Positions 6,663 to 34,125 of a stretch of DNA of 64,000 bases are shown in pieces. Position 1 is the stretch's first letter, and every line of letters starts with the position of its first letter. The notes under the pieces are model-generated. The model ran no database searches. It was not told the DNA's origin and was given only the letters and a program-made list of their open reading frames with translations. The DNA comes from an uncultured Gammaproteobacteria bacterium. Its GTDB lineage: Bacteria; Pseudomonadota; Gammaproteobacteria; CAZYIF01. The stretch lies in NCBI GenBank assembly GCA_964646995.1, contig CAZYIF010000010.1, positions 4,133 through 68,132 on the forward strand, written 5' to 3'. A program made the position numbers and the translations under genes.

Positions 6663-6701
6663 ATTTGATGTATTAGGTCCAGCCATGATCGTGACGTAAC
6701 G

Positions 6702-11372: not shown

Positions 11373-11374
11373 CG

Positions 11375-12379
11375 CTACGCGCGCATCATCGCCAAGCTGG
11401 TATCTAACATACGATTGGAAAAACCCCATTCGTTGTCGTACCAACTCAAGACTTTGACCAAACGGCCCAATACTTTCGTTTGGGTAGCATCAAAAATCGA
11501 AGACGCGGGATGATGATTGAAATCCACGGAAACTAACGGCTCTTCGTTGTAGAACAAAATCCCTTGCAGTGCGCCCTGCGCCGCCGCTTTAAGTGCCTGA
11601 TTAATTTCCTGCACATCCGTGTCACGCTGCGCCTGTAGTGTTAAATCAACAACCGACACATTGTTGGTTGGCACGCGCATCGCGAAGCCATCTAAACGAC
11701 CATTGAGTTCCGGTAAAACTAAACCTACTGCTGCGGCAGCGCCCGTCTTCGTCGGAATCATCGATTGCGTCGCTGAGCGTGCGCGACGTAAGTCGCTGTG
11801 CGCGGTATCTAATAACTTTTGATCGTTGGTATACGCATGTATCGTGGTCATCAGCCCATGTGCAATGCCTACCTTGTCATGCAACACTTTGGCAATCGGT
11901 GCTAAGCAATTGGTAGTGCACGATGCATTAGACACGATGCAGTCACTGGCCTTGAGTACAGCGTGATTAACACCGTAAACAATCGTTGCATCCGCGTCAT
12001 CTGCGGGCGCTGAAATCAAGACCTTTTTTGCACCTGCCTGCAGATGCGCGCTGGCTTTGCTACGACTCGTAAAAATGCCACTACATTCATACACGACATC
12101 AACAGCCAGATCACGCCACGGTAATTTACTCGGATCACGTTCAGCAAGAATCGCTATCGTTTGCCCGTTAACTTGCATGTGCTGATCGATCAATTCGACG
12201 TGCCCCGGGAAACGACCAAACGTACTGTCATACCGCGTCAAGTGCACATTGGTTTGAATATCCGCCAAATCATTGATGGCGACGATATGAATTTCTTGCT
12301 GCCGTGCTGCCTCATGCACTGCACGCAAAATATTACGTCCAATGCGACCATACCCATTGATTGCCACGCGGATTGCCAT
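11375..12379 (-). CDS. gap: glyceraldehyde-3-phosphate dehydrogenase
   Basis: [23 protein letters not shown]-binding N-terminus. Active-site SCTTNCLAP. Confidence 0.95.
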
Positions 12380-17859: not shown

Positions 17860-18393
17860 ATGACTATTCGCACCTTTAAGGATAAAACACCGATACTTGC
17901 TGCCGGGGTTTACGTGGACGCCTGCGCACTGGTACAAGGTGATGTTGTAATCAACACACACAGTTCCGTGTGGCCGATGGCCAGCATTCGCGGTGACGTG
18001 AATCCCATTCGTATTGGCGCCTACAGCAACATACAAGACAACTGCACCCTGCACGTCACCCACGACAGTCACTACCATCCACAAGGTGCCCACTTGCAGA
18101 TTGGCGATTACGTGACGGTAGGACATCACGTCGTACTGCATGGTTGCACCGTTCACGACTATTGCCTCATCGGCATGGGCAGTATTGTTCTCGATCATGC
18201 GATCATTGAGAGTGGCACCTTGTTAGGCGCTGGCAGCTTGGTCCCAGCACGTCAGATATTAGACGGCGGATTTTTGTGGGTAGGTCGCCCTGCACGGAAA
18301 GTGCGTGCGCTCACCCCGGAAGAAACAGCGTTTTTACGTTATTCTGCGTTGTCCTATGTTAAGTTGAAAGAGGACTATAGCGCTAGCGAATAA
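17860..18393 (+). CDS. gamma-class carbonic anhydrase-like / hexapeptide-repeat protein (YrdA/PaaY family)
   Basis: Left-handed beta-helix hexapeptide repeats (IGAYSNIQDNCTLHV, IGDYVTVGHHVVLHGCTV). His ligands are in the gamma-CA arrangement. Confidence 0.75.
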   Translation: MTIRTFKDKTPILAAGVYVDACALVQGDVVINTHSSVWPMASIRGDVNPIRIGAYSNIQDNCTLHVTHDSHYHPQGAHLQIGDYVTVGHHVVLHGCTVHDYCLIGMGSIVLDHAIIESGTLLGAGSLVPARQILDGGFLWVGRPARKVRALTPEETAFLRYSALSYVKLKEDYSASE

Positions 18394-18429: not shown

Positions 18430-19065
18430 CTAGTCCACACGCTTTTGTGCACACACGAGGTGCCGTGCCTCATTCAGCAATGGAACATCTAACATCACCA
18501 CTTGTTGTAAACGAAATGACGCGGGTAATGTAGCCAATTCCTGCTGTGGGTAGACGCCTTTCATCGCTAAAAATCGGCTGTTTTTATCCCCCAGATGTTG
18601 CGTGGCATGCAGCCACGCCGATAAATCGGAAAACGCACGACTGAGTATATCCGTTGCCGGTTGCTGCGGCGTATAGGCTTCCACCCGACCATGCATGACT
18701 TGCACCTGCGGCAACGCCAATTGCTGAGTAACCGTCTGCAGGAAACGAATTTTTTTTATATTGCTATCTAGCAATACAAACGCGCGTTCAGGCATGACTA
18801 TCGCTAAGGGGATCCCCGGTAATCCCGCACCGGTACCCACGTCGATGATCCGCGTACCTTGCACATAGGGCAAAATGGATAAACTATCCAACAGGTGTTT
18901 CACCACCATCTGCTGTCTATCGCGTATGGCCGTTAAATTATAGACTCTATTCCATTTCTCTAATAACGTCAGGTAGTGCAACAACTGCTGCTGTTGTTGT
19001 GCCGTTACCTGCAACTGCAATTGCTGCAATCCATGCGCGAGCGACGCTGCAAGATCAGCTGTCAC
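18430..19065 (-). CDS. rsmG: 16S rRNA (guanine527-N7)-methyltransferase
   Basis: 211 aa. SAM motif [17 protein letters not shown]. Located immediately downstream of mnmG, as is canonical. Confidence 0.9.
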
Positions 19066-20956
19066 TGCCTACTCCCACGGGAGCACTACGGTGTTTTTTT
19101 AAATACACCAACAACAAAGAAACCGTCGCTGGCGTAATGCCCTGCATGCGACTCGCCATGCCAAGCGTGGCAGGTTTGCTGCGTTGCAGTTTTTCACGCG
19201 CCTCGGCCGATAAACCAGAGACTTGCTGATAATCAAAATCAACCGGGATGCGCGTATTCTCATTGCGCCGATGGCGTAAAATTTCTTCATCTTGACGTAG
19301 CACGTAACCCGCATATTTTGCTTGAATTTCCACTTGTTGGGCCGCAATCTTGTCATCCAAGCCAGGGCCTACACCGTCGTTTTGCATTAAGGTCTGATAC
19401 GACAAATCTGGTCTACGCAACAAATCCCATGCCGTATGCTCTTTGTGTAAAGGTTGTTGTAAACTCAGCCCTATGCCGCGTGCAGCAACGCTATCAGGCT
19501 GTATCCATAGTGTGGCTAAACGTTCCGTCTCTGCGCTCACCGCATCACGTTTAGTCGCAAACGCACGCCAACGCGTGTCGTCTACCAAACCCAACGCGCG
19601 CCCGACTTCGGTTAAGCGTATATCCGCGTTGTCTTCACGCAATGACAAACGATACTCCGCGCGACTGGTAAACATACGATAGGGTTCCTGCGCACCTTGC
19701 ATCAGTAAATCATCAACGAGCACGCCAAGATAGGCTTGTTCGCGGCGTGGATACCAACCTTCTTTATCTTGCGCGCGCAACGCGGCGTTCAGTCCCGCTA
19801 ACAAACCTTGCGCCGCGGCTTCCTCGTATCCGGTGGTCCCGTTAATTTGTCCCGCAAAAAACAAACCGCTGATCCAGCTTGTTTCTAAGGTAGGCCGTAG
19901 ATCGCGCGGATCAAAAAAATCGTATTCTATCGCGTAACCGGGTCGCGTAATGTGCGCGTGCGCAAAACCATCGATAGAGCGCACCAACGCTACTTGCACG
20001 TCAAAAGGTAAACTGGTTGAAATGCCGTTGGGATACACTTCACGCGTCGTCAAGCCTTCGGGCTCAATAAAAATTTGATGGCGGGTCTTATCGGCAAAAC
20101 GTACGACCTTATCCTCTATCGAAGGGCAATAGCGTGGTCCAACACCCGCAATATTACCACTGTACATAGGTGAGCGATCCAAATTCGCCTGAATGATGGC
20201 GTGGGTAGCGGCATTGGTATACGCAATATGGCAACTTCGCTGCGCAGGGTGCTCCGCCACATTACCCAAAAAAGAAAACACCGGCACCGGACTATCGCCG
20301 GGTTGCTCGATTAAATTCGTGTAATCAATGCTACTACCGTCTATGCGCGGTGGGGTGCCGGTCTTGAGCCTGGCCACGCGAAACGGCAACGCGCGCAGAC
20401 GCTGAGCCAAGCGATTGGACGGTGGATCGCCCGCTCTGCCGCCTTGATAATTGTTCAGGCCGATATGAATCTGTCCCCCTAAAAAAGTTCCCGCTGCCAA
20501 CACGACCGCCTTTGCTCTAATCGCAACACCGATGCGTGTCAACACGCCGCAAATGCGCTCGTTCTCTACCATGAAATCATCCACTTCTTGTTGCAACAGA
20601 GTCAGCTGTGGTTGATTTTCTAATGCCGTACGAATGGCTTGTTTGTATAACACACGATCGGCTTGCGCACGGGTAGCACGCACTGCCGCACCCTTACTCG
20701 CATTCAAAATACGAAAATGAATACCCGCCCGATCCGCTGCGTGCGCCATCACGCCACCCAAGGCATCGATCTCTTTGACTAAGTGCCCTTTGCCTATCCC
20801 TCCTATCGAAGGATTACACGACATTTGGCCCAAGGTCTCGATGCTGTGCGTCAGCAATAAGGTACTAGCCCCCATGCGTGCAGCAGCCAACGCTGCTTCC
20901 GTTCCCGCATGCCCACCACCGACGACGATGACATCATAAATTTTTTCAATATTCAT
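19055..20956 (-). CDS. mnmG: tRNA uridine 5-carboxymethylaminomethyl modification enzyme MnmG (GidA)
   Basis: 633 aa. FAD-binding N-terminus [23 protein letters not shown]. Full-length GidA-like. Confidence 0.95.
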
Positions 20957-21066
20957 AGTATTATTTTAACGACCATTGGTTTACGCCGCTCAGCACACCC
21001 GTGCGAGACAAACGACACACCATACTTTATTATGTGCAAAAAATCATCTTTTTTATTCTTTTTACG

Positions 21067-21255
21067 CTAGCTTCGCAGCAAAAGCACACAAAATCCCACG
21101 AAAACAATCAACGCTAGACCTAAAATCCCCATGGAACGAAAGCTTTTACCCAGGTTTTCTTTACTTAAGGCCTGCGGATTCGCCCGTAAACTACGATATG
21201 CCATCCACACAAATAGTAGCCCTACCACCACCCCTATTATTTTCTCCCATTGCAT
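21067..21255 (-). CDS. small membrane protein (62 aa, 2 predicted TM helices)
   Basis: MQWEKIIGVVVGLLFVWMAYRSL...MGILGLALIVFVGFCVLLLRS. Coding-like hydrophobic architecture. Sits alone in the mnmG upstream region. Confidence 0.35.
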   Translation of the reverse strand: MQWEKIIGVVVGLLFVWMAYRSLRANPQALSKENLGKSFRSMGILGLALIVFVGFCVLLLRS

Positions 21256-21300
21256 TACATACTCCCCGCTTGCTTACTGCCCACGACAGTATAAACTTTT

Positions 21301-21363
21301 GTAACTATTCAGCAAAGACGTGGTTTTTTAGGGCGTTTTGCGCGAAGAATGCCTGCAGGCATT
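21301..21363. repeat. partial repeat-family copy: gtaactattcagcaaa head followed by an unrelated 16-bp palindrome aatgcctgcaggcatt
   Basis: Exact 16-mer shared with the other copies, located in the mnmG-upstream / fusion-gene divergent region. Confidence 0.5.
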
Positions 21364-21500
21364 ACCGCACCTCCGGTTTCATTCGCTAGCGGTGCCGTTA
21401 CCTCGTTTTTAACTAACCCGTCTTGTTTTTATGAATAAAATCATGCTTAACTTGCGAAACAGACAACATACCCATTAATGCTCATTTTAGGATAACACCG

Positions 21501-23432
21501 ATGGCTGACGCTACGCCGACTGTTTCACAACCACACACGCTAGGCCCTATTGCTGATTTGGAAAAGCACTTGCCTTCTGACTGGTGGCGCACGCTGTTTA
21601 ATTCTTTATATTTAAAAACAGACGGCGACGTCATTGAGAATGATCTCAACACCGCACAAGAAATTGATATGCTCATCAACTCCATTGACCTAAAACCAGA
21701 ACACCATGTTTTGGATCTTTGCTGCGGCCAAGGACGTCACGTCATAGAATTACACCGTCGCGGTTACACCAATGTCTCTGGTTTAGATCGTTCACGCTAT
21801 TTGATTCGTGTCGGCAAAAAACGCGCGCAGCAACTTGGCTTTCGGATCCGTTTCTCGGAAGGGGATGCACGTAAAATTCGTTTACCAGAACTCAGCCTAG
21901 ATTGCGTCGTCTTGTTTGGTAATTCCTTCGGTTATTTTGAATCACAAGAAGATGATTTGGCCGTATTGCATTCGGTATCCCGCGTACTGAAAAGCGAAGG
22001 AAAACTCGTCATGGACATCGTCAATGGCGAATGGATGCGACAACACTTTGAACCGCGCTCCTGGGAATGGATAGATGGCAATCAATTCGTTTGCAGAGAG
22101 CGGTCCTTATCGCAGGATAAATCTCGCATTATTTCACGTGAAGTGGTAGTCCATGCCGAACGTGGTGTGATTGCCGATCAATTTTACGCGGAACGGCTCT
22201 ACACATTTGAAGAAATGCAAACGATGCTGACACGACTCAACTTCAAAAACGTCACCTTACACGACAATATGTTTGCGCAATCCACACGCGGACAAGATTT
22301 AGGAATGATGGCAAATCGTATGTTCATCAGCGCTACCACACCGGTCAAGTCCATCAAAATAGCCGCCGCCAAAACCAAAAAGACCATGTTGGTTATGTTA
22401 GGCGACCCACGCCTCTCGGATTCTGTAAAACGTAACGGACAATTTAATAGCGAAGATCTGGCAACCATACAGCAACTGAAAAAAGCCCTAAGTTTGGTGC
22501 CGTATCACGTAAAATACTCGGATCAACATAAAAAATTCATCGACACACTGTTACAAAACAAACCTGATTTCGTCTTGAATTTTTGCGATGAAGGCTTTGC
22601 CAATAAAGCCGAACAGGAGCTGCATATCCCCGCGCTACTCGACATGCTCGAGATTCCGTATTCGGGTGCAACACCAGCAAGCCTCGCCCTTTGTTACAAT
22701 AAAGCCGTCGTGCGCGCGTTCGCACAACGCTTAGAAATTCCGGTACCGTTAGAGACGTATTATGATCCTAGCGATCAAGCCGCGACCTTACCGTCTATTT
22801 TCCCCGCCTTACTGAAACCTAACTTGGGCGATAGTTCGATTGGGATCACCAAAGATGCTGTCGTCCATACACCGGAAGCATTGGTTGCTTACCTTGACGA
22901 TCTAAAGACCGCCTTGCCCAACACCGCTATTTTGATCCAAGAATATCTATCAGGCACAGAATACAGCGTAGGTGTCATAGGTAACCCCGGTAATTTTAAC
23001 GTATTACCCATCCTGGAAGTGGATTACACCGAACTGCCGGAAGACTTACCCAAAATTTTAAGTTATGAATCAAAGTGGTTACCCGAATCCCCTTACTGGA
23101 ACAAAATCCGTTACGTGCAAGCCTCTCTAGACATAGATGCAGAACGCAGGCTGATCGATAGCTCCACTATTTTATTTGAGCGACTCGGCTGCAGAGACTA
23201 TGCCCGCTTTGATTTTCGCGCCGATCAACACGGTAAGATTAAGCTCTTAGAAGTCAACCCTAACCCGGGCTGGTGCTGGGATGGTAAATTAAACCTAATG
23301 GCCGGATTCGCCGGAAAAACTTACGCTGACATGTTGAATATGATCATAGAGGCGGCTGTTGATCGCATTTTTCAAGATAAGTTTATCGCCGCCGAGTTGT
23401 ATGACTACACGTTTAGTAACGGATCTCGTTAA
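21501..23432 (+). CDS. fusion protein: N-terminal class-I SAM-dependent methyltransferase + C-terminal D-alanine--D-alanine ligase-like ATP-grasp domain
   Basis: 643 aa. The methyltransferase motif I is VLDLCCGQGRH, with the post-I acidic residue, and a motif II/III region (LDCVVLFGNSFGY, GKLVMD). The Ddl-like half runs from MLVMLGDPRLSDSVKRNG through EYSVGVIGNPGNFNVLPILEV to ARFDFRADQHGKIKLLEVNPNPGW. Confidence 0.7.
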   Translation: MADATPTVSQPHTLGPIADLEKHLPSDWWRTLFNSLYLKTDGDVIENDLNTAQEIDMLINSIDLKPEHHVLDLCCGQGRHVIELHRRGYTNVSGLDRSRYLIRVGKKRAQQLGFRIRFSEGDARKIRLPELSLDCVVLFGNSFGYFESQEDDLAVLHSVSRVLKSEGKLVMDIVNGEWMRQHFEPRSWEWIDGNQFVCRERSLSQDKSRIISREVVVHAERGVIADQFYAERLYTFEEMQTMLTRLNFKNVTLHDNMFAQSTRGQDLGMMANRMFISATTPVKSIKIAAAKTKKTMLVMLGDPRLSDSVKRNGQFNSEDLATIQQLKKALSLVPYHVKYSDQHKKFIDTLLQNKPDFVLNFCDEGFANKAEQELHIPALLDMLEIPYSGATPASLALCYNKAVVRAFAQRLEIPVPLETYYDPSDQAATLPSIFPALLKPNLGDSSIGITKDAVVHTPEALVAYLDDLKTALPNTAILIQEYLSGTEYSVGVIGNPGNFNVLPILEVDYTELPEDLPKILSYESKWLPESPYWNKIRYVQASLDIDAERRLIDSSTILFERLGCRDYARFDFRADQHGKIKLLEVNPNPGWCWDGKLNLMAGFAGKTYADMLNMIIEAAVDRIFQDKFIAAELYDYTFSNGSR

Positions 23433-23527
23433 TACCGCCAGCAGCAAAGGACATAGAACCCCTAACACACGCCGGTTAGCAGCGAATGCTAACCGGGGGG
23501 ATCTCGTCACTGTTTGGCAAAGTGCCT

Positions 23528-25975
<2,448 letters not shown>

Positions 25976-26288
25976 TCACAGTTAATTCAAAAGCACGGCA
26001 GCACATCCAGGCAATATCTTTCACTATAACGCCGCTACATAACGCCAAGGAGCGCAAACATCCCAACAATCGCCTTAGTCGACACAATCCACTCTCGGCT
26101 TTTATTGCCGCGCAGAGCGGCACACACAGTCACACGGCTTTAGGCCGCATACTGTAGCATACTATGCCTCGCCACACCATTTTACCAACGCAGCCCCGTT
26201 CTACAGAGACCCGATTGTCTGCACTTACTTCGGTAAAGACCGTAGTCGCCTCAACCATCGCGCCGAACTGGATCCGTATGCCATGCCC

Positions 26289-27371
26289 TTACCCCTGTTG
26301 CGTCAGACTACCGTGTTCCACGTGAAACACGGAGCTGTCCTGCACCGTTACCCAACGCGACAAGTCTCGGTATTCTATCCCGGTGACGAACAGCTGCGCC
26401 TCCATTTCCAGCAACAATTCCATGACCAATTCGCGGTGAGCAACATCCAGTTCCGCACCCAAATCATCCACTAAGTAAGTACACGTGGCCCGTATTTTCT
26501 GCTTTAACAAAACCCCTTGAGCGACACACAACGCAATAACCAGCATTTTTTGCTGCCCTCGTGACAACGCATCGGCTACAGAAACCCCGTGGTACCGCAT
26601 GACTAGATCGGCGCGGTGAGGACCGCAGTGCGTAAAGCCAAACTGCACATCTCGTGCAATCTGTTCAGCCAATACAACATCAAGACTTTTTCCGTTATCC
26701 CAACCGCGTCGGTACAGCACATCCAACTCCGTCAGATCCGGTAGCAAGCGCAGAAGTATTTGCTGCAACAGGGTTCGAAACTCCCCCATGTATGCCGCAC
26801 GGTAATTGTCTATTTCTATTGCGGCACGCGTAAATTCAAGATTCCAGACACTCGCCTGAATCGCGGATGATTTTAAAGCGGCATTTCTCTGCTCCAAGCA
26901 ACGCTGAAAGCGTTTCCACAGGGGGAAAAATAATGGTTCCACGTGAAACAACCCCCAATCCATGAACTGCCGACGCTTTTTCGGCCCATCTATCAATAAA
27001 CCATAGGTGTCCGGATTGATCAGCTGTACTGGCAAGAAACGCACAAGCTCTGCCGTACTGTGCACATCGCGGTTATCGACACGAACACGCTGCCCCATTT
27101 GGCGGCCTTTTTCCAAGCCTATACTGATGGTTTGGCCATCCTCTTGGCCTAGCAACATAAAGACCACTGCTTTGGCCTGTTCGTAGCGCACCAGAGAATC
27201 AATTAAACCACTGCGGAAAGAACGGCCGTACCCCAACAGGTAAATAGCTTCTAAGATGCTGGTTTTACCACTGCCGTTGCGACCGTAAATCAAATTAAGC
27301 CGAGAACTGGGATGACAGTGCAACCCAGTGATATTGCGTAGATTGGTGATCTCTAGTTTGACAATGCTCAT
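26289..27371 (-). CDS. recF: DNA replication and repair protein RecF
   Basis: 360 aa. Walker A GRNGSGKTSILEAI. Canonical position between dnaN and gyrB. Confidence 0.93.
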   Translation of the reverse strand: MSIVKLEITNLRNITGLHCHPSSRLNLIYGRNGSGKTSILEAIYLLGYGRSFRSGLIDSLVRYEQAKAVVFMLLGQEDGQTISIGLEKGRQMGQRVRVDNRDVHSTAELVRFLPVQLINPDTYGLLIDGPKKRRQFMDWGLFHVEPLFFPLWKRFQRCLEQRNAALKSSAIQASVWNLEFTRAAIEIDNYRAAYMGEFRTLLQQILLRLLPDLTELDVLYRRGWDNGKSLDVVLAEQIARDVQFGFTHCGPHRADLVMRYHGVSVADALSRGQQKMLVIALCVAQGVLLKQKIRATCTYLVDDLGAELDVAHRELVMELLLEMEAQLFVTGIEYRDLSRWVTVQDSSVFHVEHGSLTQQG

Positions 27372-27390
27372 TAACGGGCCTTGCTCTCGC

Positions 27391-28491
27391 CTAAAGACGC
27401 ATGGGCATCACCACATATTTAACATCTGTGGTCGCCGTTTCTTCGATTAAAACACTGCTGTTTACATCTTTAAAACTAAACCGAATAGTTCCAGAAACAA
27501 CCGCTAAAATATCCAATAAGTAACGTATATTAAACACCACTTCTAAGGGTTGCCCCGTGTAATCTATTTCTACCGTTTCTTCTGCTTGCTCGTGCTCTGC
27601 ATTGCTGGTCGAAGCGCTTAACACACCCGTTTGCAGCGCAAAACGCACACTTTTAAAGCGGTCATTACACAATGCCGACATGCGTAGTAGCATGTTTTTC
27701 AATACGTCTTTGTCCACCTGCATCGTCTTATCACAGCCCATAGGAATGATATTGGTAAACTCTGGGTAACGCCCATCGATTAACTTGGAAGTGAAGCATA
27801 AACCCATCATGTCGATTTTTAGGTGATTTTTATTAACGGTCAACACCGCATCTTCCGCATCTTCTTCCGTTAAGCGCAACAGTTCAACCACCGCTTTCCT
27901 GGGAATAATAATTTGCTGCTTTTTTTCTTGTGGTAACGCGATGCCGTATTCACACAGCGCTAAGCGATAACCATCCGTTGCCACCGCGCACAGACGATCC
28001 GCACCTATTTCTAACAGTAAGCCATTGAGATAATAACGCACATCTTGGTTGGCCATGGCAAAGTGGGTGCGATGCAACAAATAACAGAGCTCGCGTCGCG
28101 GCAAGGTGAGTTCTAATTCCGCAGGACCCAATTCAGACGCCGGAAAGTCGTCTGCAGGCAACGTCGACAAAGAGAACTTTGCACGCCCAGATCTTAATGT
28201 AACCAATTGATTTTCAATTGAAATTTTAATTTTCTGCTGCTCTGGCAAAACGCGACAAATATCCATTAACTTGCGCGCTGACACCGTGGTTTCGGCGCTC
28301 TCTGTCGGTTGCTCTAAGCCAAGGGAAACCACCAATTCCATATCCGTATCCGTTGCCGTAAACGAAACGACGTCCTGTTGGGTTCGCAACAAGACATTAC
28401 TCAGAATAGGCATAGCTTGGCGCTTTTCAGTAACGCCACTTACTTTTTGTAAAGTCTTTAATAGCGCTTCTCTTTGTATGTGAAAATCCAT
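27391..28491 (-). CDS. dnaN: DNA polymerase III beta sliding clamp
   Basis: Full-length beta-clamp-like. I place the start at the internal Met (MDFHIQREALLKTLQ) at 28491. The track start at 28515 is 8 codons further upstream. Confidence 0.93.
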   Translation of the reverse strand: MDFHIQREALLKTLQKVSGVTEKRQAMPILSNVLLRTQQDVVSFTATDTDMELVVSLGLEQPTESAETTVSARKLMDICRVLPEQQKIKISIENQLVTLRSGRAKFSLSTLPADDFPASELGPAELELTLPRRELCYLLHRTHFAMANQDVRYYLNGLLLEIGADRLCAVATDGYRLALCEYGIALPQEKKQQIIIPRKAVVELLRLTEEDAEDAVLTVNKNHLKIDMMGLCFTSKLIDGRYPEFTNIIPMGCDKTMQVDKDVLKNMLLRMSALCNDRFKSVRFALQTGVLSASTSNAEHEQAEETVEIDYTGQPLEVVFNIRYLLDILAVVSGTIRFSFKDVNSSVLIEETATTDVKYVVMPMRL

Positions 28492-28538
28492 TGCTACACC
28501 CTCTTTAGCCGTCACTCGTTATACACCACTAACCGTGC

Positions 28539-29927
28539 TTAGGTAGTCAATATCCTGAGTAGATTCGTGTAGTCTTGTTCTATGTCTACCTGCATCTCGC
28601 GTAAACGATTAATGGTACGGCAAGCATGCAGCACAGTCGTGTGATCGCGGCCACTGAAGACATCACCTATCTCGGGTAAGCTATGATTTGTAAGCTCCTT
28701 GGCCAACGCCATAGCCATTTGACGAGGCCTAGCGACAGAACGGCTGCGTCGTTTAGATAATAATTCCACGACGCGTATTTTATAATATTCAGCGACTGTT
28801 TTCTGAATATTTTCTATGGTCACTAGCTTGTCCTGTAAACTCAATAAATCGCGTAAGGCCTCACGCACAAACTCCAAGGTAATTGGTTTTCCGATGAAAT
28901 GCGCGTTGGCAATGACGCGCTTAAGCGCGCCCTCTAATTCACGCACGTTAGAGCGAATCCGTTTCGCAATAAAAAAAGCAACTTCGTGCGGTATGACAAT
29001 CTGACTTTGCTCGGCTTTACTCATCAATATAGCTACGCGCGTTTCTAATTCAGGCGGTTCAACTGCCACCGTTAGGCCCCAACCAAAGCGTGATTTTAAT
29101 CGCTCCTCAAGACCCGATATTTCTTTGGGATAACGATCACAGGTCAAAATCACTTGACGCTGCCCTTCAAGTAAGGAGTTAAATGTGTGAAAGAACTCTT
29201 CCTGTGATCGATCTTTACCCGCAAAAAATTGAATATCGTCAATGAGTAACGCATCCACGGTGCGGTAATAGGCTTTAAAATCATTCATGCGATTGGTTTG
29301 TAATGCTTTTACCATATCCGCAACGAAGCGCTCAGAATGTAAGTACAAGACTTTCGCGCGTGGATTATTCTGCAAAATAACATCGCCAATGGCGTGCAAC
29401 AGATGGGTCTTACCCAACCCCACCCCGCCATACAGTAACAAGGGATTATAGGCTTTCCCGGGGTTCTCACCTACCTGAAAAGACGCGGCCTTTGCCAGTT
29501 GATTGGATTTACCCTCAACAAAGTTAGTAAACGTAAAACTTCGGTTGATGTTACCGTGATGCGCGATAAAAACATTCGTAGGGACATCCGCTGGTAGGTT
29601 GCTTCGCTCGTTAATCACCTTGTGTGCCGGTGTATTCATCTGCGACAAAACGTCTTTGCCGGCGTCCCCCTCTTGAGCCTTCGTGCCTATCTCCAACACC
29701 ACCGCACCAACGCCGTCGCCTACCACAGAAACCATTAATTCTTTAATTCGCAACAAAAAAAACTCATCTATACGATCCAAAACAAACCGATTGGGCGCGA
29801 GTAAATGCAGCTTGTCATCACGAATCTCTGCGTGTAACGGCCGAATCCACGTATTGAATTGTTGTGGAGATATTTCATCGCGCAAGTGCTCGAGGCACGA
29901 ATCCCACGTTGCTAAAGAAACAGACAC
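28539..29927 (-). CDS. dnaA: chromosomal replication initiator protein DnaA
   Basis: AAA+ domain ([15 protein letters not shown], box VII, sensor regions) and C-terminal DNA-binding domain. The likely start is the GTG at 29927, giving [31 protein letters not shown], which aligns with the E. coli N-terminus. The track start is 29951. Confidence 0.95.
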
Positions 29928-29951
29928 AGCGTACCAACCCCTATTAACCAC

Positions 29952-30404
29952 AATTTCTCGCCCATACTAGCTGAATTTAGCAACAAAGTTAATGCGATTC
30001 GCGCGGAATGTCGAAACTCAGCAAAAAAGAAGAAGGATGCTTTATTTCACTTCATGTTAAAAAATGACCTTTCTCGCGACACCTCACTTCCGTCAACCGT
30101 TGTTTCCTGTGTGCTAACTGTGGATAACACGTTATGATTTTGCCGGTTTAACAAGAAACCCCAACGCTACAAGTCTTACCCACAACCGGCGGCAAGAGTT
30201 ACCCACACAAAAAATGAGCGTAACTAATTGAAATTAAACAAGTTTAGCGAAGTAAGCACATAGACAAGCGATTAATAAGAAACATAAACATAAAACATTA
30301 AAATATATTTATTATAAAGATGTAAGCATTGTTTGACTTCCTTCATGCCCTTTATGTAAACTTTCGCACTATTTTGTGGTTGTTTCATTACTTTAAGGTG
30401 TGTT
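29952..30404. other. putative chromosomal replication origin (oriC) in the dnaA-rpmH spacer
   Basis: Perfect DnaA box TGTGGATAA at 30119..30127. Two TTACCCACA boxes with one mismatch at 30177..30185 and 30199..30207. AT-rich putative DUE at about 30270..30340. Gene orientation diverges on either side. Confidence 0.6.
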
Positions 30405-30405
30405 C

Positions 30406-30540
30406 ATGAAAAGAACTTTTCAACCCAGTCAACTTAAGCGCAAACGTGACCATGGCTTTCGCGCCAGAATGGCAACTAAGAACGGTCGTAAGATAATCAA
30501 CCGTAGACGCAGACAAGGTCGTATTCGAGTCAGCGCTTGA
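30406..30540 (+). CDS. rpmH: 50S ribosomal protein L34
   Basis: 44 aa, [44 protein letters not shown]. Under the track's 60-aa cutoff. Confidence 0.95.
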
Positions 30541-30908
30541 ACGAAATCGGATCATCGTTTTCTGCTTTTCTTCGCTTGCGTGGTGATGATTTTAGTCGCG
30601 TTTTCAAGGAAGCGGTTCCCTTTCGTGTGCAAGGCATAACGCTGTTAGCCCGTAGCAACGGGCTGGTTTATCCACGCTTTGGTTTTGTCATAGGCAAAAA
30701 GCAGGTAAAAAAAGCTTATTTACGCAATCGCCTTAAGCGGGTACTGCGGGAAAGTTTCCGTCATAAGCGCATCGAACTACCTGCCGTTGATATGGTTGCT
30801 GTGATTTATCAACGTGGTTTACCGATTGATAAAGTTGCTTTTGCCAAGCGGGTGGATGATATATGGAAACAACTAAACGCATACTACAAGCCGCTTGCTG
30901 CGGATTGA
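30537..30908 (+). CDS. rnpA: ribonuclease P protein component
   Basis: 123 aa, basic. RNR-like motif region [20 protein letters not shown]. Follows rpmH. Confidence 0.9.
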
Positions 30909-31108
30909 TACTGTTTTATCGTTGTTGCTTGAGTCCTTTCATAGGCTCGCATTGCCGATTTTATCCCTCGTGTTCGCGTTACAGTTATGAGGCTATACAA
31001 CGGCATGGTCTTGGGTATGGGCTTTGGCTGAGTGGCCTACGGCTGTTACGTTGCCATCCCTGGCATTGTGGTGGTGTGGATATCGTTCCGAACAAGAAAA
31101 AGGTGTAG
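30863..31108 (+). CDS. yidD: membrane protein insertion efficiency factor YidD
   Basis: [31 protein letters not shown], the hallmark YidD Cys-rich motif. Overlaps the rnpA 3' end. Confidence 0.9.
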
Positions 31109-31114
31109 CGGGTT

Positions 31115-32779
31115 ATGGAGTTTCAAAAAGCGATCTTATGGGGTGCCCTATTCTTAGTGTTGTTCTTATTTTGGGATGCGTGGCAAAAAGACCATTACCA
31201 ACCCGTTACGACTGCTGCATCGGCGACACAGGCCGCGCGTGAGCAAGGGATTCCATTGCCGGAAAGTGCTGCGCTGGCAACGACCGATAAATCCACATTA
31301 CCCGCTACCCCCGCAATGCGACCTACGCGCTATATCGTTGTTGATACGGATCTGCTAGGCCTGAAGATAGACTTACGTGGCGGAAATATAATTTACAGTG
31401 AATTTAAACGCTATCCAGAGAATAGCAAAAAACCACAACGCGCGTTGGTGTTGTTGAATAATGAAGAAGCTTCACGGTATTGGGCGGAGAGTGGACTCGT
31501 TAGCGCGACTGGGCCTGATCTACTTCATAAAGAGCAAGCTGAATATACCACGGAGGGCGCTACTTTTTCCTTAGCCGATGGTAAGGATAAATTGGTGGTG
31601 ACCTTACAGTGGAATAAAGACGGCGTAGTGGTTAATAAAATATTTACTTTGCACCGAGACAGCTACGTCATCGATGTGAGTTATGCCATTGCCAATCGTA
31701 GCCCGCAGAATTGGACCGGTCACCTGTACACGGAATTGAAACGCAAAGAGACGGAACAAGCGGGTAATAGTTTTAATACATTCTTTGGAGCAGCTATTTC
31801 CAGTGCGGAAAAGCCTTACGAAAAAATAACCTTTAAAGCCATGCACAAACAAGCTTTATCGCGTGATATAGAAAATGGTTGGGCTGCGATGTTGCAGCAT
31901 TATTTTTTAAGTGCTTGGATTCCTCCTGCCGGTGAAAAATACCATTATTATACTCGGATATTGCCCGGTGAAATCTATGCCATTGGAATGGTGAGCCCGT
32001 TATTGCAGGTTGCAAGCCAACAGTCGCTTACGGTCGGTAGCAAATTATACGTAGGGCCGACTATTATTCAGCGTCTCGCGGCAGTAGCTCCGCATTTAGA
32101 TTTAACGGTGGATTACGGTTTCTTATGGTTTATTTCTTCCGCATTGTTTTGGCTGATGGAAAAAATGCATTCGTTTTTCGGCAACTGGGGTTGGTGTATT
32201 ATTGCGGTAACTGTTTTGATTAAATTGCTATTTTATCGCTTGTCTGCGACGAGTTATCGTTCGATGGCAAGAATGAGAAACATGCAGCCGAAGATCCAAC
32301 TGCTGAAAGAACGCTACGGTGATGATAGACAGGCGATGACAAAAGCCACGATGGAGTTGTATAAGAAAGAGAAAATTAATCCGTTAGGCGGATGCTTACC
32401 TATTTTGGTACAAATCCCTGTGTTTTTAGGCTTGTATTGGGTGTTGTTAGATAGCGTGGAGTTTAGGCAAGCACCTTTTATTGGATGGATAACCGATCTA
32501 TCCATTAAAGATCCGTTTTACGTACTACCGTTATTGATGGGTTTTTCTATGTTCGTGCAACAGAAGATGAGTCCTCCGCCACCCGATCCGATGCAGGCAA
32601 AAGTGATGATGCTGATGCCGGTTATTTTCACGGTGTTTTTCTTGAATTTTCCTGCGGGTTTGGTGTTGTATTGGTTGGTTAATAATACGTTATCTATCTT
32701 GCAGCAGTGGTGGATCACGCGCAGTATTATGCACGCAGAAGCGCAGGGTTCTAGTAAGAAAGCGTATAAAAATAAGTAA
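31115..32779 (+). CDS. yidC: membrane protein insertase YidC
   Basis: 554 aa. N-terminal TM, periplasmic domain, and a C-terminal 5-TM core (KINPLGGCLPILVQIPVFLGLYW). Confidence 0.95.
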   Translation: MEFQKAILWGALFLVLFLFWDAWQKDHYQPVTTAASATQAAREQGIPLPESAALATTDKSTLPATPAMRPTRYIVVDTDLLGLKIDLRGGNIIYSEFKRYPENSKKPQRALVLLNNEEASRYWAESGLVSATGPDLLHKEQAEYTTEGATFSLADGKDKLVVTLQWNKDGVVVNKIFTLHRDSYVIDVSYAIANRSPQNWTGHLYTELKRKETEQAGNSFNTFFGAAISSAEKPYEKITFKAMHKQALSRDIENGWAAMLQHYFLSAWIPPAGEKYHYYTRILPGEIYAIGMVSPLLQVASQQSLTVGSKLYVGPTIIQRLAAVAPHLDLTVDYGFLWFISSALFWLMEKMHSFFGNWGWCIIAVTVLIKLLFYRLSATSYRSMARMRNMQPKIQLLKERYGDDRQAMTKATMELYKKEKINPLGGCLPILVQIPVFLGLYWVLLDSVEFRQAPFIGWITDLSIKDPFYVLPLLMGFSMFVQQKMSPPPPDPMQAKVMMLMPVIFTVFFLNFPAGLVLYWLVNNTLSILQQWWITRSIMHAEAQGSSKKAYKNK

Positions 32780-34125
32780 TGTTAAGCAGTGACCGCGATA
32801 CGATTGCTGCAATAGCTACACCACCGGGACGTGGTGGTATAGGGATTGTACGTGTATCGGGTACACGGGTTCCTCTTGTCATTCAGCAAATGTTCGGTGC
32901 GTTGCAGCCACGTTATGCAACCCACAAAAAATTTTTAAACGCAGCGCAAGTTCTTATGGATGAAGGTGTTGCGCTCTGGTTTCCGGCGCCGCATTCTTTC
33001 ACAGGTGAAGATGTGTTGGAGCTGCAAGGACACGGTAGCACGATTGTATTAGATGGCGTATTGCAACATCTGTTTACCTTAGGCGTAAGACTCGCGCAAC
33101 CCGGTGAATTTTCACAACGTGCATTTTTAAATAATAAAATCGACTTATTACAAGCAGAAGCCATTGCCGATTTAATCAATGCAAGCAGTGTGCAAGCTGC
33201 GCGTGCCGCCATGCGTTCACTACAAGGCGATTTTTCTTCGCAGATAACGACCTTTAAACAAGCCTTGGTGCAATTACGTATGTACGTAGAAGCCACCATT
33301 GATTTTCCCGAAGAAGACATTGAACACGCCAGTGAAATTGGTGTGCAGCTATCAGTATTGCAACAGCATTTACACACGCTACAAAAAACCGCACAGCAAG
33401 GCGTGTTATTGCAAGAAGGCGTGACGGTTGTCATTGCCGGTTTGCCTAATGTGGGTAAATCCAGTTTGCTCAATCAATTGAGTGGCGAAGAAACGGCAAT
33501 TGTTACGGCCATTCCCGGTACAACGCGTGATATTATCCGCTGCCACATTCAGTTAGAAGGTTTGCCGATCGTGGTCATTGATACAGCGGGATTACGAGCC
33601 AGTTCTGATCCTGTGGAGCAAGAAGGAATACGCAGAGCGATCGCACAAATGAGCAAGGCCGATCACGTGCTACTTATAGTAGATGAAAGGTATACGCCGG
33701 AAATGGTAGAGCAGTTGCTACGCGACTATCCCGCATTGCAACAGTGTCCACATACCGTGGTGCACAATAAAATTGATTTAACCGGTCAAGCGCCGCACGC
33801 AGAAAAAAACAAAGACAGAGCACATATTTATGTATCTGCTAAAACGGGTGCGGGGTTAGATGCGTTGCGCACGCATGTGACCCGAAGTATGGGGTATCAA
33901 GGCGGCGCAGGCGATTTCAGTGCGCGGCGACGTCATGTGGATGCGTTGACACGGGTGCAACAATTACTGATGCAGGCACAGCACACCTTTACCCACTCTC
34001 AAGCCGGCGAGTTAGTCGCGGAAGATTTGCGGTTAGCGCAACAGGTGTTGGGTGAGATAACCGGCGAGTTCACCGCGGATGATTTGTTAGGCGAGATTTT
34101 TTCGCGGTTTTGTATCGGTAAATGA
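32779..34125 (+). CDS. mnmE: tRNA modification GTPase MnmE (TrmE)
   Basis: 448 aa. G1 GLPNVGKSSL, DTAG, NKIDL. C-terminal CIGK tetrapeptide. Confidence 0.95.
   Translation: MLSSDRDTIAAIATPPGRGGIGIVRVSGTRVPLVIQQMFGALQPRYATHKKFLNAAQVLMDEGVALWFPAPHSFTGEDVLELQGHGSTIVLDGVLQHLFTLGVRLAQPGEFSQRAFLNNKIDLLQAEAIADLINASSVQAARAAMRSLQGDFSSQITTFKQALVQLRMYVEATIDFPEEDIEHASEIGVQLSVLQQHLHTLQKTAQQGVLLQEGVTVVIAGLPNVGKSSLLNQLSGEETAIVTAIPGTTRDIIRCHIQLEGLPIVVIDTAGLRASSDPVEQEGIRRAIAQMSKADHVLLIVDERYTPEMVEQLLRDYPALQQCPHTVVHNKIDLTGQAPHAEKNKDRAHIYVSAKTGAGLDALRTHVTRSMGYQGGAGDFSARRRHVDALTRVQQLLMQAQHTFTHSQAGELVAEDLRLAQQVLGEITGEFTADDLLGEIFSRFCIGK

What the first reader, a model, noticed from the sequence alone, without database searches (positions are those of the whole stretch)
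21501..23432. Methyltransferase fused to a D-Ala-D-Ala-ligase-like ATP-grasp domain, standing alone next to mnmG
A single 643-aa ORF joins a class-I SAM methyltransferase (VLDLCCGQGRH...) to a complete Ddl-family ATP-grasp ligase. The ligase N-domain is MLVMLGDPRLSDSVKRNG, the central domain is EYSVGVIGN, and the C-terminal catalytic domain is FDFRADQHGKIKLLEVNPNPGW. I do not recognise this fusion as a known enzyme. Separate methyltransferase and Ddl-like proteins cooperate in small-molecule pathways such as mycosporine-like amino acid biosynthesis (MysB/MysD), so a fused enzyme could make an N- or O-methylated dipeptide or aminoacylated metabolite. It is monocistronic and divergent from a small membrane-protein gene, and the spacer carries a repeat-family fragment.
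Basis: partly seen in the sequence, partly recalled or inferred. Interest (0 to 1): 0.6.

Follow-up and report, generated by a model that had tools for sequence, protein, structure and literature searches.

The report
Methyltransferase–ligase fusion enzyme, product unknown
This gene encodes a real two-part enzyme, an N-methyltransferase joined to an ATP-driven amide-bond ligase, that is found nearly unchanged in many bacterial phyla and some aquatic fungi but has never been characterised, so it probably makes a small methylated metabolite nobody has yet identified.

Summary
Window 21501-23432 (+) is one uninterrupted 643-aa ORF with a class-I SAM methyltransferase half (res ~20-283) and a complete D-Ala-D-Ala-ligase-fold ATP-grasp half (res ~296-627).

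It is not an assembly join. Thousands of full-length homologues, 59-76% identical, occur across at least eight bacterial phyla, and the same fusion occurs in zoosporic fungi.

It is not a true Ddl. The ATP and catalytic residues are invariant, but the D-Ala-specific residues are replaced by a family signature (W526, R573, NPNPGWCWDGK). Curated Ddl models score far below their cut-offs.

The methyltransferase half is closest to NmbA, which N-methylates the free cysteine amine of bacillithiol.

No neighbour is universal. An M32 carboxypeptidase gene abuts the fusion in about 10% of loci in four lineages. Polyamine genes recur nearby, and the ligase subfamily is elsewhere fused to GNAT or S9 peptidase domains.

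Best reading: the ligase makes an amide conjugate with a free amine and the methyltransferase N-methylates it. The product is unknown.

The mycosporine analogy and any link to mnmG are not supported. I found no paper or curated family that describes the fusion. I rate it a widespread uncharacterised enzyme of moderate interest.

The parts
21501..23432 (+). Complete ORF of the methyltransferase-ligase fusion (643 aa plus stop)
   Evidence: ORF list; both domains; P0001 is 100% identical; 120 full-length homologues listed
21489..21492 (+). AGGA ribosome-binding site, 8 nt before the ATG
   Evidence: sequence read directly
21558..22349 (+). NmbA-like class-I SAM methyltransferase half (res ~20-283): Rossmann core plus a four-strand beta Cap
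   Evidence: 9RI2/CtNmbA, E 3e-22, res 31-242; 29% identity over 204 residues; (secondary structure; pLDDT mostly above 85)
21708..21740 (+). SAM-binding motif I, VLDLCCGQGRH (res 70-80); D72, C74-H80 invariant in the family
   Evidence: invariant columns; aligns to LDIACGAGRH of NmbA
21924..21941 (+). SFGYFE loop (res 142-147). It matches the NmbA motif IV/V aromatic pair Y134/F135, which is proposed to hold the SAM adenine
   Evidence: alignment; G140-G144 and F146 invariant; paper text
22350..22385 (+). Inter-domain linker (res 284-295): low model confidence and variable sequence
   Evidence: pLDDT below 50 at res 287-291; consensus is x in this stretch
22386..23381 (+). Ddl-fold ATP-grasp ligase half (res ~296-627) with N, central and C subdomains
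   Evidence: Foldseek E 4e-20, TM about 0.8 to Ddl structures; residue mapping to E. coli DdlB
23064..23078 (+). Omega-loop YESKW (res 522-526). K525 corresponds to DdlB K215; W526 replaces the D-Ala-site residue Y216
   Evidence: (Y522, E523, S524, K525 invariant; W526 in 63 of 65)
23256..23288 (+). NPNPGWCWDGK (res 586-596). N586 corresponds to the Mg ligand N272 of DdlB. The rest is a family-specific motif replacing the D-Ala2 carboxylate site (S281 to G595, L282 to K596)
   Evidence: the motif is shared by fused, standalone and fungal members
21301..21316 (+). 16-mer GTAACTATTCAGCAAA in the upstream spacer; possible shared operator or promoter element
   Evidence: exact copies at 4839, 37085 and 37235; 15/16 at 6711-6726 on the minus strand

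Best explanation
The gene encodes a bifunctional small-molecule enzyme whose two halves carry out consecutive steps.

Step 1 (ligase). The C-terminal ATP-grasp half works like D-Ala-D-Ala ligase. It phosphorylates a carboxylate with ATP to form an acyl phosphate, which is then attacked by an amine. The substrates differ from those of Ddl. The donor is probably an amino acid whose alpha-amine stays free. The acceptor is probably a cationic amine, either a basic amino acid or a polyamine.

Step 2 (methyltransferase). The N-terminal NmbA-like half uses SAM to N-methylate the free amine of that amide product, or of its precursor. NmbA does the same to the cysteinyl amine of bacillithiol.

The product would be an N-methylated dipeptide-like or aminoacyl-amine metabolite. 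In the lineages that carry an adjacent hydrolase gene (M32 carboxypeptidase, DoeB/AstE-type deacylase, CN-hydrolase), that hydrolase would turn the product over.

What is shown: domain identities, conservation of the catalytic residues, loss of the D-Ala-specific residues, the distribution of the family, and its partner genes.

What is inferred: coupling of the two activities, N-directed methylation, the order of the steps, and the nature of the substrates.
For: - Both catalytic sets are intact and invariant in a 65-sequence family alignment. The SAM motifs are D72/G76/G78, D96, D122 and G140-G144. The ATP-grasp residues corresponding to DdlB K97, K144, S150/S151, E187, K215, R255, D257, E270, N272 and G276 are all present.
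- D-Ala-specific positions are replaced by other invariant residues: Y216 to W526, S281 to G595, L282 to K596, M259 to R573, and E15 is not conserved. Ddl models score 106 bits against a 243-bit cut-off.
- The nearest solved relative of the methyltransferase half is CtNmbA (9RI2), at E 3e-22 and 29% identity over 204 residues including the Cap. The next methyltransferase hit is at 6e-12. NmbA N-methylates the cysteine amine of bacillithiol (PMC12719100).
- Most other hits that extend well beyond the Rossmann core are N-methyltransferases: daptide MTase and glycine/sarcosine N-MTase; the CypM hit is core-centred.
- The fusion is kept at 59-76% identity across Gamma-, Alpha- and Betaproteobacteria, Planctomycetota, Nitrospinota, Nitrospirota, Hydrogenedentota, Verrucomicrobiota and Acidobacteriota, and it recurs in Blastocladiomycota and Chytridiomycota. 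This argues for functional coupling of the halves.
- The same ligase subfamily is alternatively fused to a GNAT acetyltransferase, another amine-capping enzyme.
- Amide hydrolases recur as partners. An M32 carboxypeptidase gene starts 5-90 bp after the fusion in 15 loci of four lineages, plus L086/87. AstE/DoeB-like and CN-hydrolase genes occur nearby. S9 peptidase fusions occur in choanoflagellates.
- Polyamine genes lie close by. ODC is 0.4-0.7 kb downstream in most loci of an alphaproteobacterial clade (up to 5 kb in a few). AdoMet decarboxylase and a deoxyhypusine-synthase-like gene follow the fusion in L058. DHS-like genes are nearby in planctomycete loci.
Against: - No substrate has been identified and nothing here is biochemical.
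- Most loci (about 75%) show no informative neighbour, and the window itself has none of the partner genes.
- The ODC association is a single inherited synteny block (rpoH-rluD-fusion-ODC), so it counts as one event.
- M32 enzymes need a free C-terminal carboxylate. That fits a dipeptide product but not an aminoacyl-polyamine, so the two context signals point to somewhat different acceptors.
- About 60% identity across phyla is unusually high for a specialised small-molecule enzyme and would also fit a conserved macromolecular substrate.
- Other partners of the ligase subfamily (LRR, SET) have a protein-modification flavour.
- The AlphaFold pTM of 0.60 leaves the relative placement of the two active sites unresolved.
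Confidence: 0.5

Rival explanations
1. It is a peptide- or protein-modifying enzyme. The ATP-grasp half would add an amino acid to the C-terminal or a side-chain carboxylate of a ribosomally made peptide or conserved protein, in the manner of RimK or tubulin-tyrosine ligase. The methyltransferase half would methylate that substrate's N-terminal amine, in the manner of CypM or the daptide MTase. The adjacent carboxypeptidase would reverse or trim the addition.
For: - The methyltransferase half hits peptide N-terminal methyltransferases: daptide MTase at 1.3e-13 and CypM 7WZG.
- Domain partners of the ligase subfamily include LRR, SET, S9 prolyl oligopeptidase and the M32 carboxypeptidase, all of which act on peptides or proteins.
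- Sequence conservation across phyla is very high.
Against: - By sequence and fold the ligase sits with Ddl/Van small-molecule ligases, not with RimK or RiPP ATP-grasp enzymes. All top PDB and Foldseek hits are Ddl.
- No conserved small precursor-peptide gene or target gene lies next to it; the BLAST clustering of the first 82 loci found no shared small ORF and the 62-aa ORF here has no tblastn match in any other fetched locus.
- The nearest methyltransferase relative, NmbA, acts on a small molecule.
Confidence: 0.2
2. It makes a low-molecular-weight thiol. The ligase would join cysteine (or gamma-Glu-Cys) through its carboxylate to an amine, and the NmbA-like half would N-methylate the free amine. 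This would be a counterpart of N-methyl-bacillithiol in organisms that lack bacillithiol. It is a specific sub-case of the main explanation.
For: - NmbA is the closest characterised homologue of the methyltransferase half, and the similarity includes the substrate-binding Cap (PMC12719100).
- Ddl-like ATP-grasp domains are known to do the glutathione-synthetase step in GshF (from my own knowledge; not tested here).
- One standalone ligase (L085) lies between a MAPEG gene and a rhodanese gene.
Against: - No sulfur, cysteine or redox genes recur among the operon-like partners.
- The single L085 context is anecdotal.
- 29% identity does not fix the substrate.
- No GshF structure appears among the 66 PDB sequence hits.
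Confidence: 0.1
3. It is a genuine D-Ala-D-Ala (or D-Ala-D-X) ligase paralogue for peptidoglycan synthesis that happens to carry a methyltransferase domain. Several source annotations imply this ('D-alanine--D-alanine ligase', 'ddlA1').
For: The best family and structure matches for the C-terminal half are Ddl and VanA, and some databases name it this way.
Against: - Scores are far below every curated Ddl/Van cut-off: 106 against 243 bits, and 60-76 against 520-775 bits.
- The D-Ala-site residues Y216, S281 and L282 are replaced by invariant W, G and K, and E15 is not conserved.
- No mur/ftsQ context appears in the 82 loci clustered or among the 64 partner ORFs scanned.
- The fusion occurs in fungi that have no peptidoglycan.
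- The subfamily is separated from DdlB by a long branch.
Confidence: 0.03
4. It is a mycosporine-like-amino-acid type secondary-metabolite enzyme, a fused analogue of MysB and MysD.
For: MysD is also a Ddl-like ATP-grasp enzyme and the pathway includes a methyltransferase (from my own knowledge; not tested here).
Against: - No DDGS/EEVS-type cyclase and no O-methyltransferase (Methyltransf_3) family appears among the 25 commonest Pfam families of the 64 operon-like partner ORFs scanned (genome loci only).
- The methyltransferase half is NmbA-like and N-directed, not a catechol-type O-methyltransferase.
- The gene usually stands alone among housekeeping genes.
Confidence: 0.02

Closest known systems
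D-alanine--D-alanine ligase (DdlB, PDB 2DLN) and VanA (1E4E)
   Same: It has the same three-subdomain ATP-grasp fold (Foldseek TM about 0.8). The ATP, Mg and transition-state residues are the same (K97, K144, S150/151, E187, K215, R255, D257, E270, N272). It most likely uses the same acyl-phosphate chemistry.
   Different: The substrate-site residues are replaced (Y216 to W, S281/L282 to G/K, E15 not conserved), and there is a new invariant CDEG...N...E.H block and an NPNPGWCWDGK motif. Scores are below all Ddl/Van cut-offs. There is no cell-wall gene context. It is fused to a methyltransferase and is present in fungi.
NmbA, bacillithiol N-methyltransferase (Chlorobaculum tepidum CT1040, PDB 9RI2; PMC12719100)
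   Same: It is the best solved homologue of the N-terminal half (E 3e-22, 29% identity over 204 residues). They share motif I, the SFGYFE loop and the four-strand Cap region. NmbA methylates a free alpha-amine of an amino acid whose carboxylate is in an amide bond, which is exactly what a Ddl-type ligase product would offer.
   Different: NmbA is a standalone 266-aa protein found in bacteria that make bacillithiol (Chlorobiota, Bacteroidota, Bacillota). This protein is fused to a ligase and occurs mainly in Proteobacteria, Planctomycetota and Nitrospinota. The substrate is unknown, and the presence of bshABC could not be tested.
Ngg, N-acetylglutaminylglutamine synthetase of the NAGGN osmolyte pathway (GNAT plus ATP-grasp bifunctional enzyme). 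Cited from my own knowledge, not tested here
   Same: The logic is the same: one polypeptide joins an amine-capping domain to an ATP-grasp peptide ligase to make an N-capped dipeptide from common metabolites. A GNAT-fused member of this very ligase subfamily exists (P0207).
   Different: Here the cap is a methyl group and not an acetyl group. The Ngg ATP-grasp domain belongs to a different branch (cyanophycin-synthetase/RimK-like), and no asnO-like partner gene is present.
Glutathionylspermidine synthetase/amidase (Gss), and carnosine synthase with carnosine N-methyltransferase (which make anserine). Cited from my own knowledge
   Same: These are ATP-grasp amide ligases that join an amino-acid or peptide carboxylate to a polyamine or amino acid, paired with a hydrolase (Gss) or an N-methyltransferase (anserine). 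This parallels the hydrolase and polyamine gene contexts seen here.
   Different: They belong to different ATP-grasp and methyltransferase families, and I found no sequence-level relationship to them.
MysD/MysB of mycosporine-like amino acid biosynthesis
   Same: It combines a Ddl-like ATP-grasp ligase and a SAM methyltransferase in one pathway.
   Different: In that pathway the proteins are separate, the methyltransferase is O-directed, and cyclase genes are always adjacent. None of these features is seen here.

Membership tests
D-alanine--D-alanine ligase (EC 6.3.2.4; NCBIfam TIGR01205 / NF002378) | Whole-protein score reaches the curated family cut-off | tested here: not met
   The best score is 106 bits against a 243-bit cut-off. 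Every Ddl/Van model falls below its cut-off.
D-alanine--D-alanine ligase (EC 6.3.2.4; NCBIfam TIGR01205 / NF002378) | ATP-grasp fold with the catalytic residues K97, K144, K215, R255, D257, E270 and N272 (DdlB numbering) | tested here: met
   All are present and invariant in the family (K401, K439, K525, R569, D571, E584, N586). Foldseek gives TM about 0.8 to Ddl structures.
D-alanine--D-alanine ligase (EC 6.3.2.4; NCBIfam TIGR01205 / NF002378) | D-Ala binding residues: the E15-S150-Y216 triad and the S281/L282 carboxylate site | tested here: not met
   S150 is kept. Y216 becomes W526, S281 becomes G595, L282 becomes K596, and E15 is not conserved.
D-alanine--D-alanine ligase (EC 6.3.2.4; NCBIfam TIGR01205 / NF002378) | Cell-wall gene context (mur/ftsQ) or restriction to peptidoglycan-containing organisms | tested here: not met
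   No mur/ftsQ gene among the recurrent neighbour clusters of 82 loci or the 25 commonest Pfam families of 64 partner ORFs. Homologues occur in Blastocladiella, Paraphysoderma and Quaeritorhiza.
NmbA (N-methyl-bacillithiol synthase) family | Significant full-length similarity to CtNmbA that includes the Cap domain (the paper's criteria: E at most 1e-20, identity above 25%) | tested here: met
   E 3e-22 and 29% identity, aligning res 31-242 to NmbA res 24-227 of 266.
NmbA (N-methyl-bacillithiol synthase) family | Standalone protein of similar length (about 266 aa, coverage above 80%) | tested here: not met
   Here it is the N-terminal half of a 643-aa fusion.
NmbA (N-methyl-bacillithiol synthase) family | Co-occurrence with bshA, bshB and bshC in the same genome | not testable with these tools
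   Only 64 kb of the genome is available. No bsh-like gene was noticed in the window, but the rest of the genome is unseen.
NmbA (N-methyl-bacillithiol synthase) family | Methylation of bacillithiol in vitro | not testable with these tools
   This needs a biochemical assay.
MysB/MysD mycosporine-like amino acid pathway | Adjacent 4-deoxygadusol genes (a DDGS/EEVS cyclase and an O-methyltransferase) | tested here: not met
   No such family appears among the operon-like partners or in the clustered neighbourhoods.
New 'NPNPGWCWDGK' Ddl-like ligase subfamily (defined here) | Signature GDP...D307...K310, C362-D-E-G, N368, E373, H375, W526, R573, NPNPGWCWDGK | tested here: met
   The window protein carries every signature residue. 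Fused, standalone (P0136, P0343, L086 ligA) and fungal (P0159) members share the signature, with a single-residue deviation in P0136, P0343 and P0159.

The most novel reading that the evidence does not exclude
The fusion makes a metabolite that has not been described: an N-methylated aminoacyl-amide. One possibility is a new low-molecular-weight thiol, N-methyl-cysteinyl-amine or -polyamine, which would be a counterpart of N-methyl-bacillithiol in organisms without bacillithiol. Another is an N-methylated basic dipeptide or polyamine conjugate used as an osmolyte or buffer. Either would be produced by at least eight bacterial phyla and by zoosporic fungi, and cycled by dedicated hydrolases.
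Probability: 0.3. Interest if true: 0.8.

Novelty: new variant of a known kind. Interest (0 to 1): 0.55.

Why it matters
If the reading is right, a single conserved gene marks a metabolite and pathway that has gone unnoticed. That gene is present in thousands of environmental bacteria (Proteobacteria, Planctomycetota, Nitrospinota, Nitrospirota, Hydrogenedentota and others) and in early-diverging fungi.

Public databases currently label these genes 'D-alanine--D-alanine ligase' or 'methyltransferase domain-containing protein'. The first label is probably wrong and could mislead cell-wall and vancomycin-resistance surveys.

NmbA was characterised only recently (2025). That gives a concrete, testable handle: N-methylation of a free amine next to an amide bond. 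Both halves sit on one polypeptide, so a single recombinant protein with panels of amino acids, polyamines, ATP and SAM should reveal the product.

Tried and rejected
- **Assembly or sequencing join.** Rejected. There are 120 of 120 full-length top hits, and 80 loci each from the genome and metagenome collections. The only split I saw (L088) is a 1-nt frameshift of a fused gene.
- **Functional link to mnmG/rsmG (tRNA or rRNA modification).** Rejected. Among the 169 loci fetched, mnmG lies beside the fusion only in L081, which is a copy of this same genome. In related Gammaproteobacteria the hexapeptide-repeat gene is the direct upstream neighbour.
- **The small 62-aa membrane ORF as a partner.** Rejected. 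It has no homologue beside the fusion in any other locus.
- **A universal conserved operon.** BLAST clustering of 82 neighbourhoods found none. Only partial, lineage-restricted partners exist.
- **A riboswitch or leader as a ligand clue.** There was no Rfam hit in the window, and none upstream of the fusion in seven diverse loci, where the only hits were rRNA genes in L021.
- **A phage origin.** One standalone homologue (P0131) lies in a phage-like contig. The IMG/VR pattern scan and the GenBank phage collection gave no close relatives.
- **Literature.** Five searches for the fusion itself found nothing relevant, and the CysFE paper concerns a different fusion. A sixth search, for PDB code 9RI2, led to the NmbA paper.
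- **A faulty residue mapping.** My first DdlB mapping was wrong because of mafft --keeplength. I redid it. A first signature table was mis-registered and was redone.
- **Organism name.** I could not obtain one. P0001 carries no name in its sources.
Full report
**1. The observation**

Window 21501..23432 (+) is a single 643-aa ORF with an ATG start. An AGGA ribosome-binding site lies 8 nt upstream.

Pfam finds Methyltransf_25 at res 70-167 (9e-18) and Dala_Dala_lig_C at res 433-617 (5e-20). NCBIfam Ddl models align res 322-620.

An AlphaFold2 model built on a 65-sequence alignment has mean pLDDT 83.4. Confidence drops only at the termini and at a short linker, res 287-291. Foldseek places the C-terminal half on solved Ddl structures (E 4e-20, target-normalised TM about 0.8). 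It places the N-terminal half on methyltransferases with a four-strand Cap, 3D2L and 1WZN.

- rsmG 18430-19065 (-)
- mnmG 19055-20956 (-)
- a 62-aa hydrophobic ORF 21067-21255 (-)
- the fusion (+)
- gyrB 23528-25954 (-), then recF and dnaN

dnaA, rnpA, yidC and mnmE follow, and the GC skew changes sign near 30 kb. This is the chromosomal origin region of a bacterium of about 49% GC. The nearest relatives of the fusion protein are uncultured Gammaproteobacteria.

**2. The fusion is real and very common**

The word-indexed search returned 5,608 proteins at E below 1e-5. The top 120 are all 620-688 aa long, cover at least 94% of the query and are 59-76% identical to it.

In species-representative genomes, 346 stretches encode a relative. 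This is a lower bound, because the scan used six peptide patterns taken from this one sequence. The 80 loci kept come from Gamma-, Alpha- and Betaproteobacteria, Planctomycetota, Nitrospinota, Nitrospirota, Hydrogenedentota, Verrucomicrobiota and Acidobacteriota. A metagenome scan added 416 more stretches.

The family alignment has 64% mean column identity and about 140 invariant columns.

The same methyltransferase-ligase architecture, with longer linkers, occurs in Blastocladiella britannica, Paraphysoderma sedebokerense and Quaeritorhiza haematococci.

The one locus where the halves looked like separate genes (L088) differs from a 653-aa fused cluster-mate by a 1-nt frameshift in the linker. 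The 'sequencing-error join' refutation therefore fails.

**3. The ligase half**

I recalled the E. coli DdlB sequence from memory and verified it as identical to PDB 2DLN, then aligned it to the family.

The residues for ATP binding, Mg binding and transition-state stabilisation are present and invariant:

| DdlB | This protein |
|---|---|
| K97 | K401 |
| K144 | K439 |
| S150/S151 | S445/S446 |
| E187 | E487 |
| K215 | K525 |
| R255 | R569 |
| D257 | D571 |
| E270 | E584 |
| N272 | N586 |
| G276 | G590 |

The residues that make Ddl specific for D-alanine are not kept. Y216 becomes W526, S281 becomes G595, L282 becomes K596, M259 becomes R573, and E15 has no conserved counterpart.

In their place the family has its own invariant signature: GDP(301-303), D307, K310, C362-D-E-G, N368, E373, H375, Y532-W533 and NPNPGWCWDGK(586-596).

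All curated Ddl and Van models score far below their cut-offs, at best 106 bits against 243. The half is therefore a catalytically competent ATP-grasp amide ligase of the Ddl lineage, but with different substrates. It should not be filed as Ddl.

An exhaustive HMMER search with this half found 8,642 cluster representatives at E below 1e-3 and 404 below 1e-30. Among the best 150, the architectures are as follows:
- methyltransferase-ligase fusions;
- true standalone ligases of about 335-370 aa that start at the LGDPRL strand;
- tandem double ligases;
- ligase plus GNAT acetyltransferase (P0207);
- ligase plus S9 prolyl oligopeptidase, in the choanoflagellates Monosiga brevicollis and Barroeca monosierra;
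- LRR plus ligase, in a Lokiarchaeon;
- a form that also carries a SET domain.

Standalone and fungal members keep the full signature, so they probably perform the same ligation. In a rough neighbour-joining tree, fused and standalone forms interleave and the whole subfamily is far from DdlB. That tree is weakly resolved, and I take from it only that the subfamily is distinct from Ddl.

**4. The methyltransferase half**

SAM motif I (VLDLCCGQGRH), the acidic residues D96 and D122, and the GNSFGYF loop are invariant.

The best solved homologue by a wide margin is 9RI2, at E 3e-22 and aligned over res 31-242. The next methyltransferase hit is at 6e-12 and covers only the Rossmann core.

9RI2 is CtNmbA, shown in 2025 to N-methylate the cysteine amine of bacillithiol. 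It defines a class of N-directed methyltransferases with a four-strand Cap (PMC12719100). Identity to it is 29% over 204 aligned residues, including the Cap and the SFGYFE loop that matches NmbA Y134/F135.

Most other hits that extend well beyond the core are N-methyltransferases: daptide MTase at 1.3e-13 and glycine/sarcosine N-MTase at 3.5e-11; the CypM hit is core-centred. N-methylation of a primary amine is therefore the most likely chemistry. This is inferred, not shown.

**5. Gene context**

No neighbour is conserved across phyla. The window contains none of the recurrent partners and no second member of either domain family.

*Amide hydrolases.* This is the strongest recurrent signal.
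- An M32 (Taq-type) carboxypeptidase gene starts 5-90 bp after the end of the fusion match in 15 loci: 7 of the 80 genome loci and 8 of the 80 metagenome loci. They belong to Nitrospinota, Nitrospirota, Beta- and Gammaproteobacteria. The gammaproteobacterial MAG locus L086/87 adds one more lineage.
- AstE/DoeB-type deacylase genes and CN-hydrolase genes also occur next to the fusion.
- In choanoflagellates the ligase is fused directly to an S9 peptidase.

*Polyamine genes.* This signal is weaker.
- An ornithine-decarboxylase-type gene lies 0.4-0.7 kb downstream in most loci of an alphaproteobacterial clade (up to about 5 kb in a few), 7 genome loci and 16 metagenome loci. This is one inherited synteny block, rpoH-rluD-fusion-ODC, so it counts as a single event.
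- In L058 (Hydrogenedentota) the fusion is followed by an AdoMet decarboxylase that scores above its NCBIfam cut-off, and then by a deoxyhypusine-synthase-like gene.
- DHS-like genes lie 2-4 kb away in planctomycete loci.

*Other observations.*
- In L086/87 two further standalone ligases of the same subfamily and an MFS transporter lie within 6 kb.
- The hexapeptide-repeat gene at window 17860-18393 is the direct upstream neighbour of the fusion in L021 and L086/87. In this genome rsmG-mnmG lie between the two, so the mnmG adjacency carries no functional weight.
- No riboswitch was found upstream, either here or in seven other loci.

**6. Mechanism proposed**

- *Shown:* both active sites are intact; the ligase is not specific for D-Ala; the methyltransferase is NmbA-like; and the two halves are kept together across phyla and in fungi.
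- *Inferred:* the ligase activates an amino-acid carboxylate as an acyl phosphate and couples it to an amine, leaving a free alpha-amine. The methyltransferase half then methylates that amine with SAM. This is the situation of the cysteinyl amide in bacillithiol.

Several things suggest an amide-linked small molecule that is made and broken down, as with glutathionylspermidine, NAAG, carnosine/anserine or NAGGN (these comparisons are from my own knowledge):
- the alternative GNAT fusion, which is another way to cap an amine;
- the recurrent hydrolase partners;
- the 16 invariant acidic residues in the ligase half, against 11 basic ones including histidine (my count);
- the polyamine or basic-amino-acid gene context.

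The M32 partner argues for a free C-terminal carboxylate, that is, a dipeptide with perhaps a basic C-terminal residue. The polyamine genes argue for an amine acceptor. I cannot decide between the two.

Confidence is about 0.5 for the general scheme and much lower for any specific substrate.

**7. Rival readings**

- *Peptide or protein modification (0.2).* The LRR, SET, S9 and M32 partners, the similarity to peptide N-terminal methyltransferases and the very high conservation all fit. No precursor or target gene co-localises, and the ligase groups with small-molecule Ddl enzymes.
- *A new N-methylated thiol (0.1, a sub-case of the main reading).* It rests on the NmbA homology only.
- *A true Ddl (0.03).* It fails the cut-off, residue, context and taxon tests.
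- *The MysB/MysD analogy (0.02).* It has no contextual or methyltransferase-type support.

**8. Novelty and verdict**

I found no paper or curated family model that describes this fusion. Source databases call it 'D-alanine--D-alanine ligase', 'ddlA1' or 'methyltransferase domain-containing protein'.

It combines two well-known enzyme kinds, so it is not categorically new. It is, however, a widespread, strongly conserved bifunctional enzyme whose product is unknown, and the recent NmbA work makes it directly testable.

I rate it a new variant of a known kind, with interest 0.55.

Noticed in passing
window 21301-21316, 4839-4854, 37085-37100, 37235-37250 (+); 6711-6726 (-): An exact 16-mer, GTAACTATTCAGCAAA, recurs upstream of the fusion gene, upstream of pckA (5103-6662) and upstream of an ABC permease (37252-39096). 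A 15/16 copy lies at the start of an XRE/S24 LexA-like regulator ORF (6702-7442). The flanks are unrelated, so it may be a shared operator or promoter element that defines a small regulon.
   Followed up: partly
window 21348-21363: A perfect 16-bp palindrome, AATGCCTGCAGGCATT, lies in the spacer upstream of the fusion gene. Its function is unknown.
   Followed up: no
window ~37024-37334: A tandem direct duplication of about 150 bp lies in the fmt / ABC-permease intergenic region. The two copies are identical over more than 120 nt, and each carries the 16-mer.
   Followed up: no
window 18430-34125: This is a classical replication-origin neighbourhood: rsmG, mnmG, [fusion], gyrB, recF, dnaN, dnaA (28539-29951), a ~580-bp gap, rnpA, yidC and mnmE. 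The GC skew changes sign near 30 kb. The fusion gene lies between the mnmG and gyrB blocks.
   Followed up: partly
L086/L087 (Gammaproteobacteria MAG GCA_017306795.1), 358-11987: This cluster holds a hexapeptide-repeat gene, the methyltransferase-ligase fusion, an M32 peptidase, an MFS transporter and shikimate dehydrogenase on the opposite strand, two tandem standalone ligases of the same subfamily (373 and 367 aa), and a 1,080-aa protein with no Pfam hit. The second standalone ligase has lost the WCWDGK motif. It may be a multi-step peptide pathway.
   Followed up: partly
L082-L084 (Logan ERR139506xx contigs): A standalone ligase of this subfamily (P0131, 338 aa) sits in a phage-like contig of many tiny ORFs, with MazG, DUF4326, an Rv2179c-like exonuclease and a Cpn60 gene. 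No close relative exists in the GenBank phage collection, and the IMG/VR pattern scan found none.
   Followed up: partly
P0219 (Monosiga brevicollis XP_001745658.1), P0251 (Barroeca monosierra), P0157 (Lokiarchaeia HMF33764.1), P0173, P0207: The ligase subfamily occurs fused to S9 prolyl oligopeptidase in choanoflagellates, to LRRs in a Lokiarchaeon, to a SET domain (P0173) and to a GNAT (P0207).
   Followed up: partly
L089 333-3993; the P0314 locus (no DNA held): Standalone ligases lie in tight operon-like arrangements with pta-ackA (3-bp gaps) in one lineage, and directly after L-serine dehydratase in another. I have no explanation for either.
   Followed up: no
L088 5081-7041: The fusion appears as two ORFs here because of a 1-nt indel in the linker, relative to a 653-aa cluster-mate (P0389). 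This is either an assembly error or a recent pseudogenisation.
   Followed up: yes
P0225, P0247, P0256, P0258, P0260, P0261, P0267, P0268: Proteins of about 610-790 aa that carry two Ddl-like ligase domains in tandem (starting MKIAFVYNL...) form the basal branch of this subfamily in the neighbour-joining tree. They are uncharacterised.
   Followed up: no
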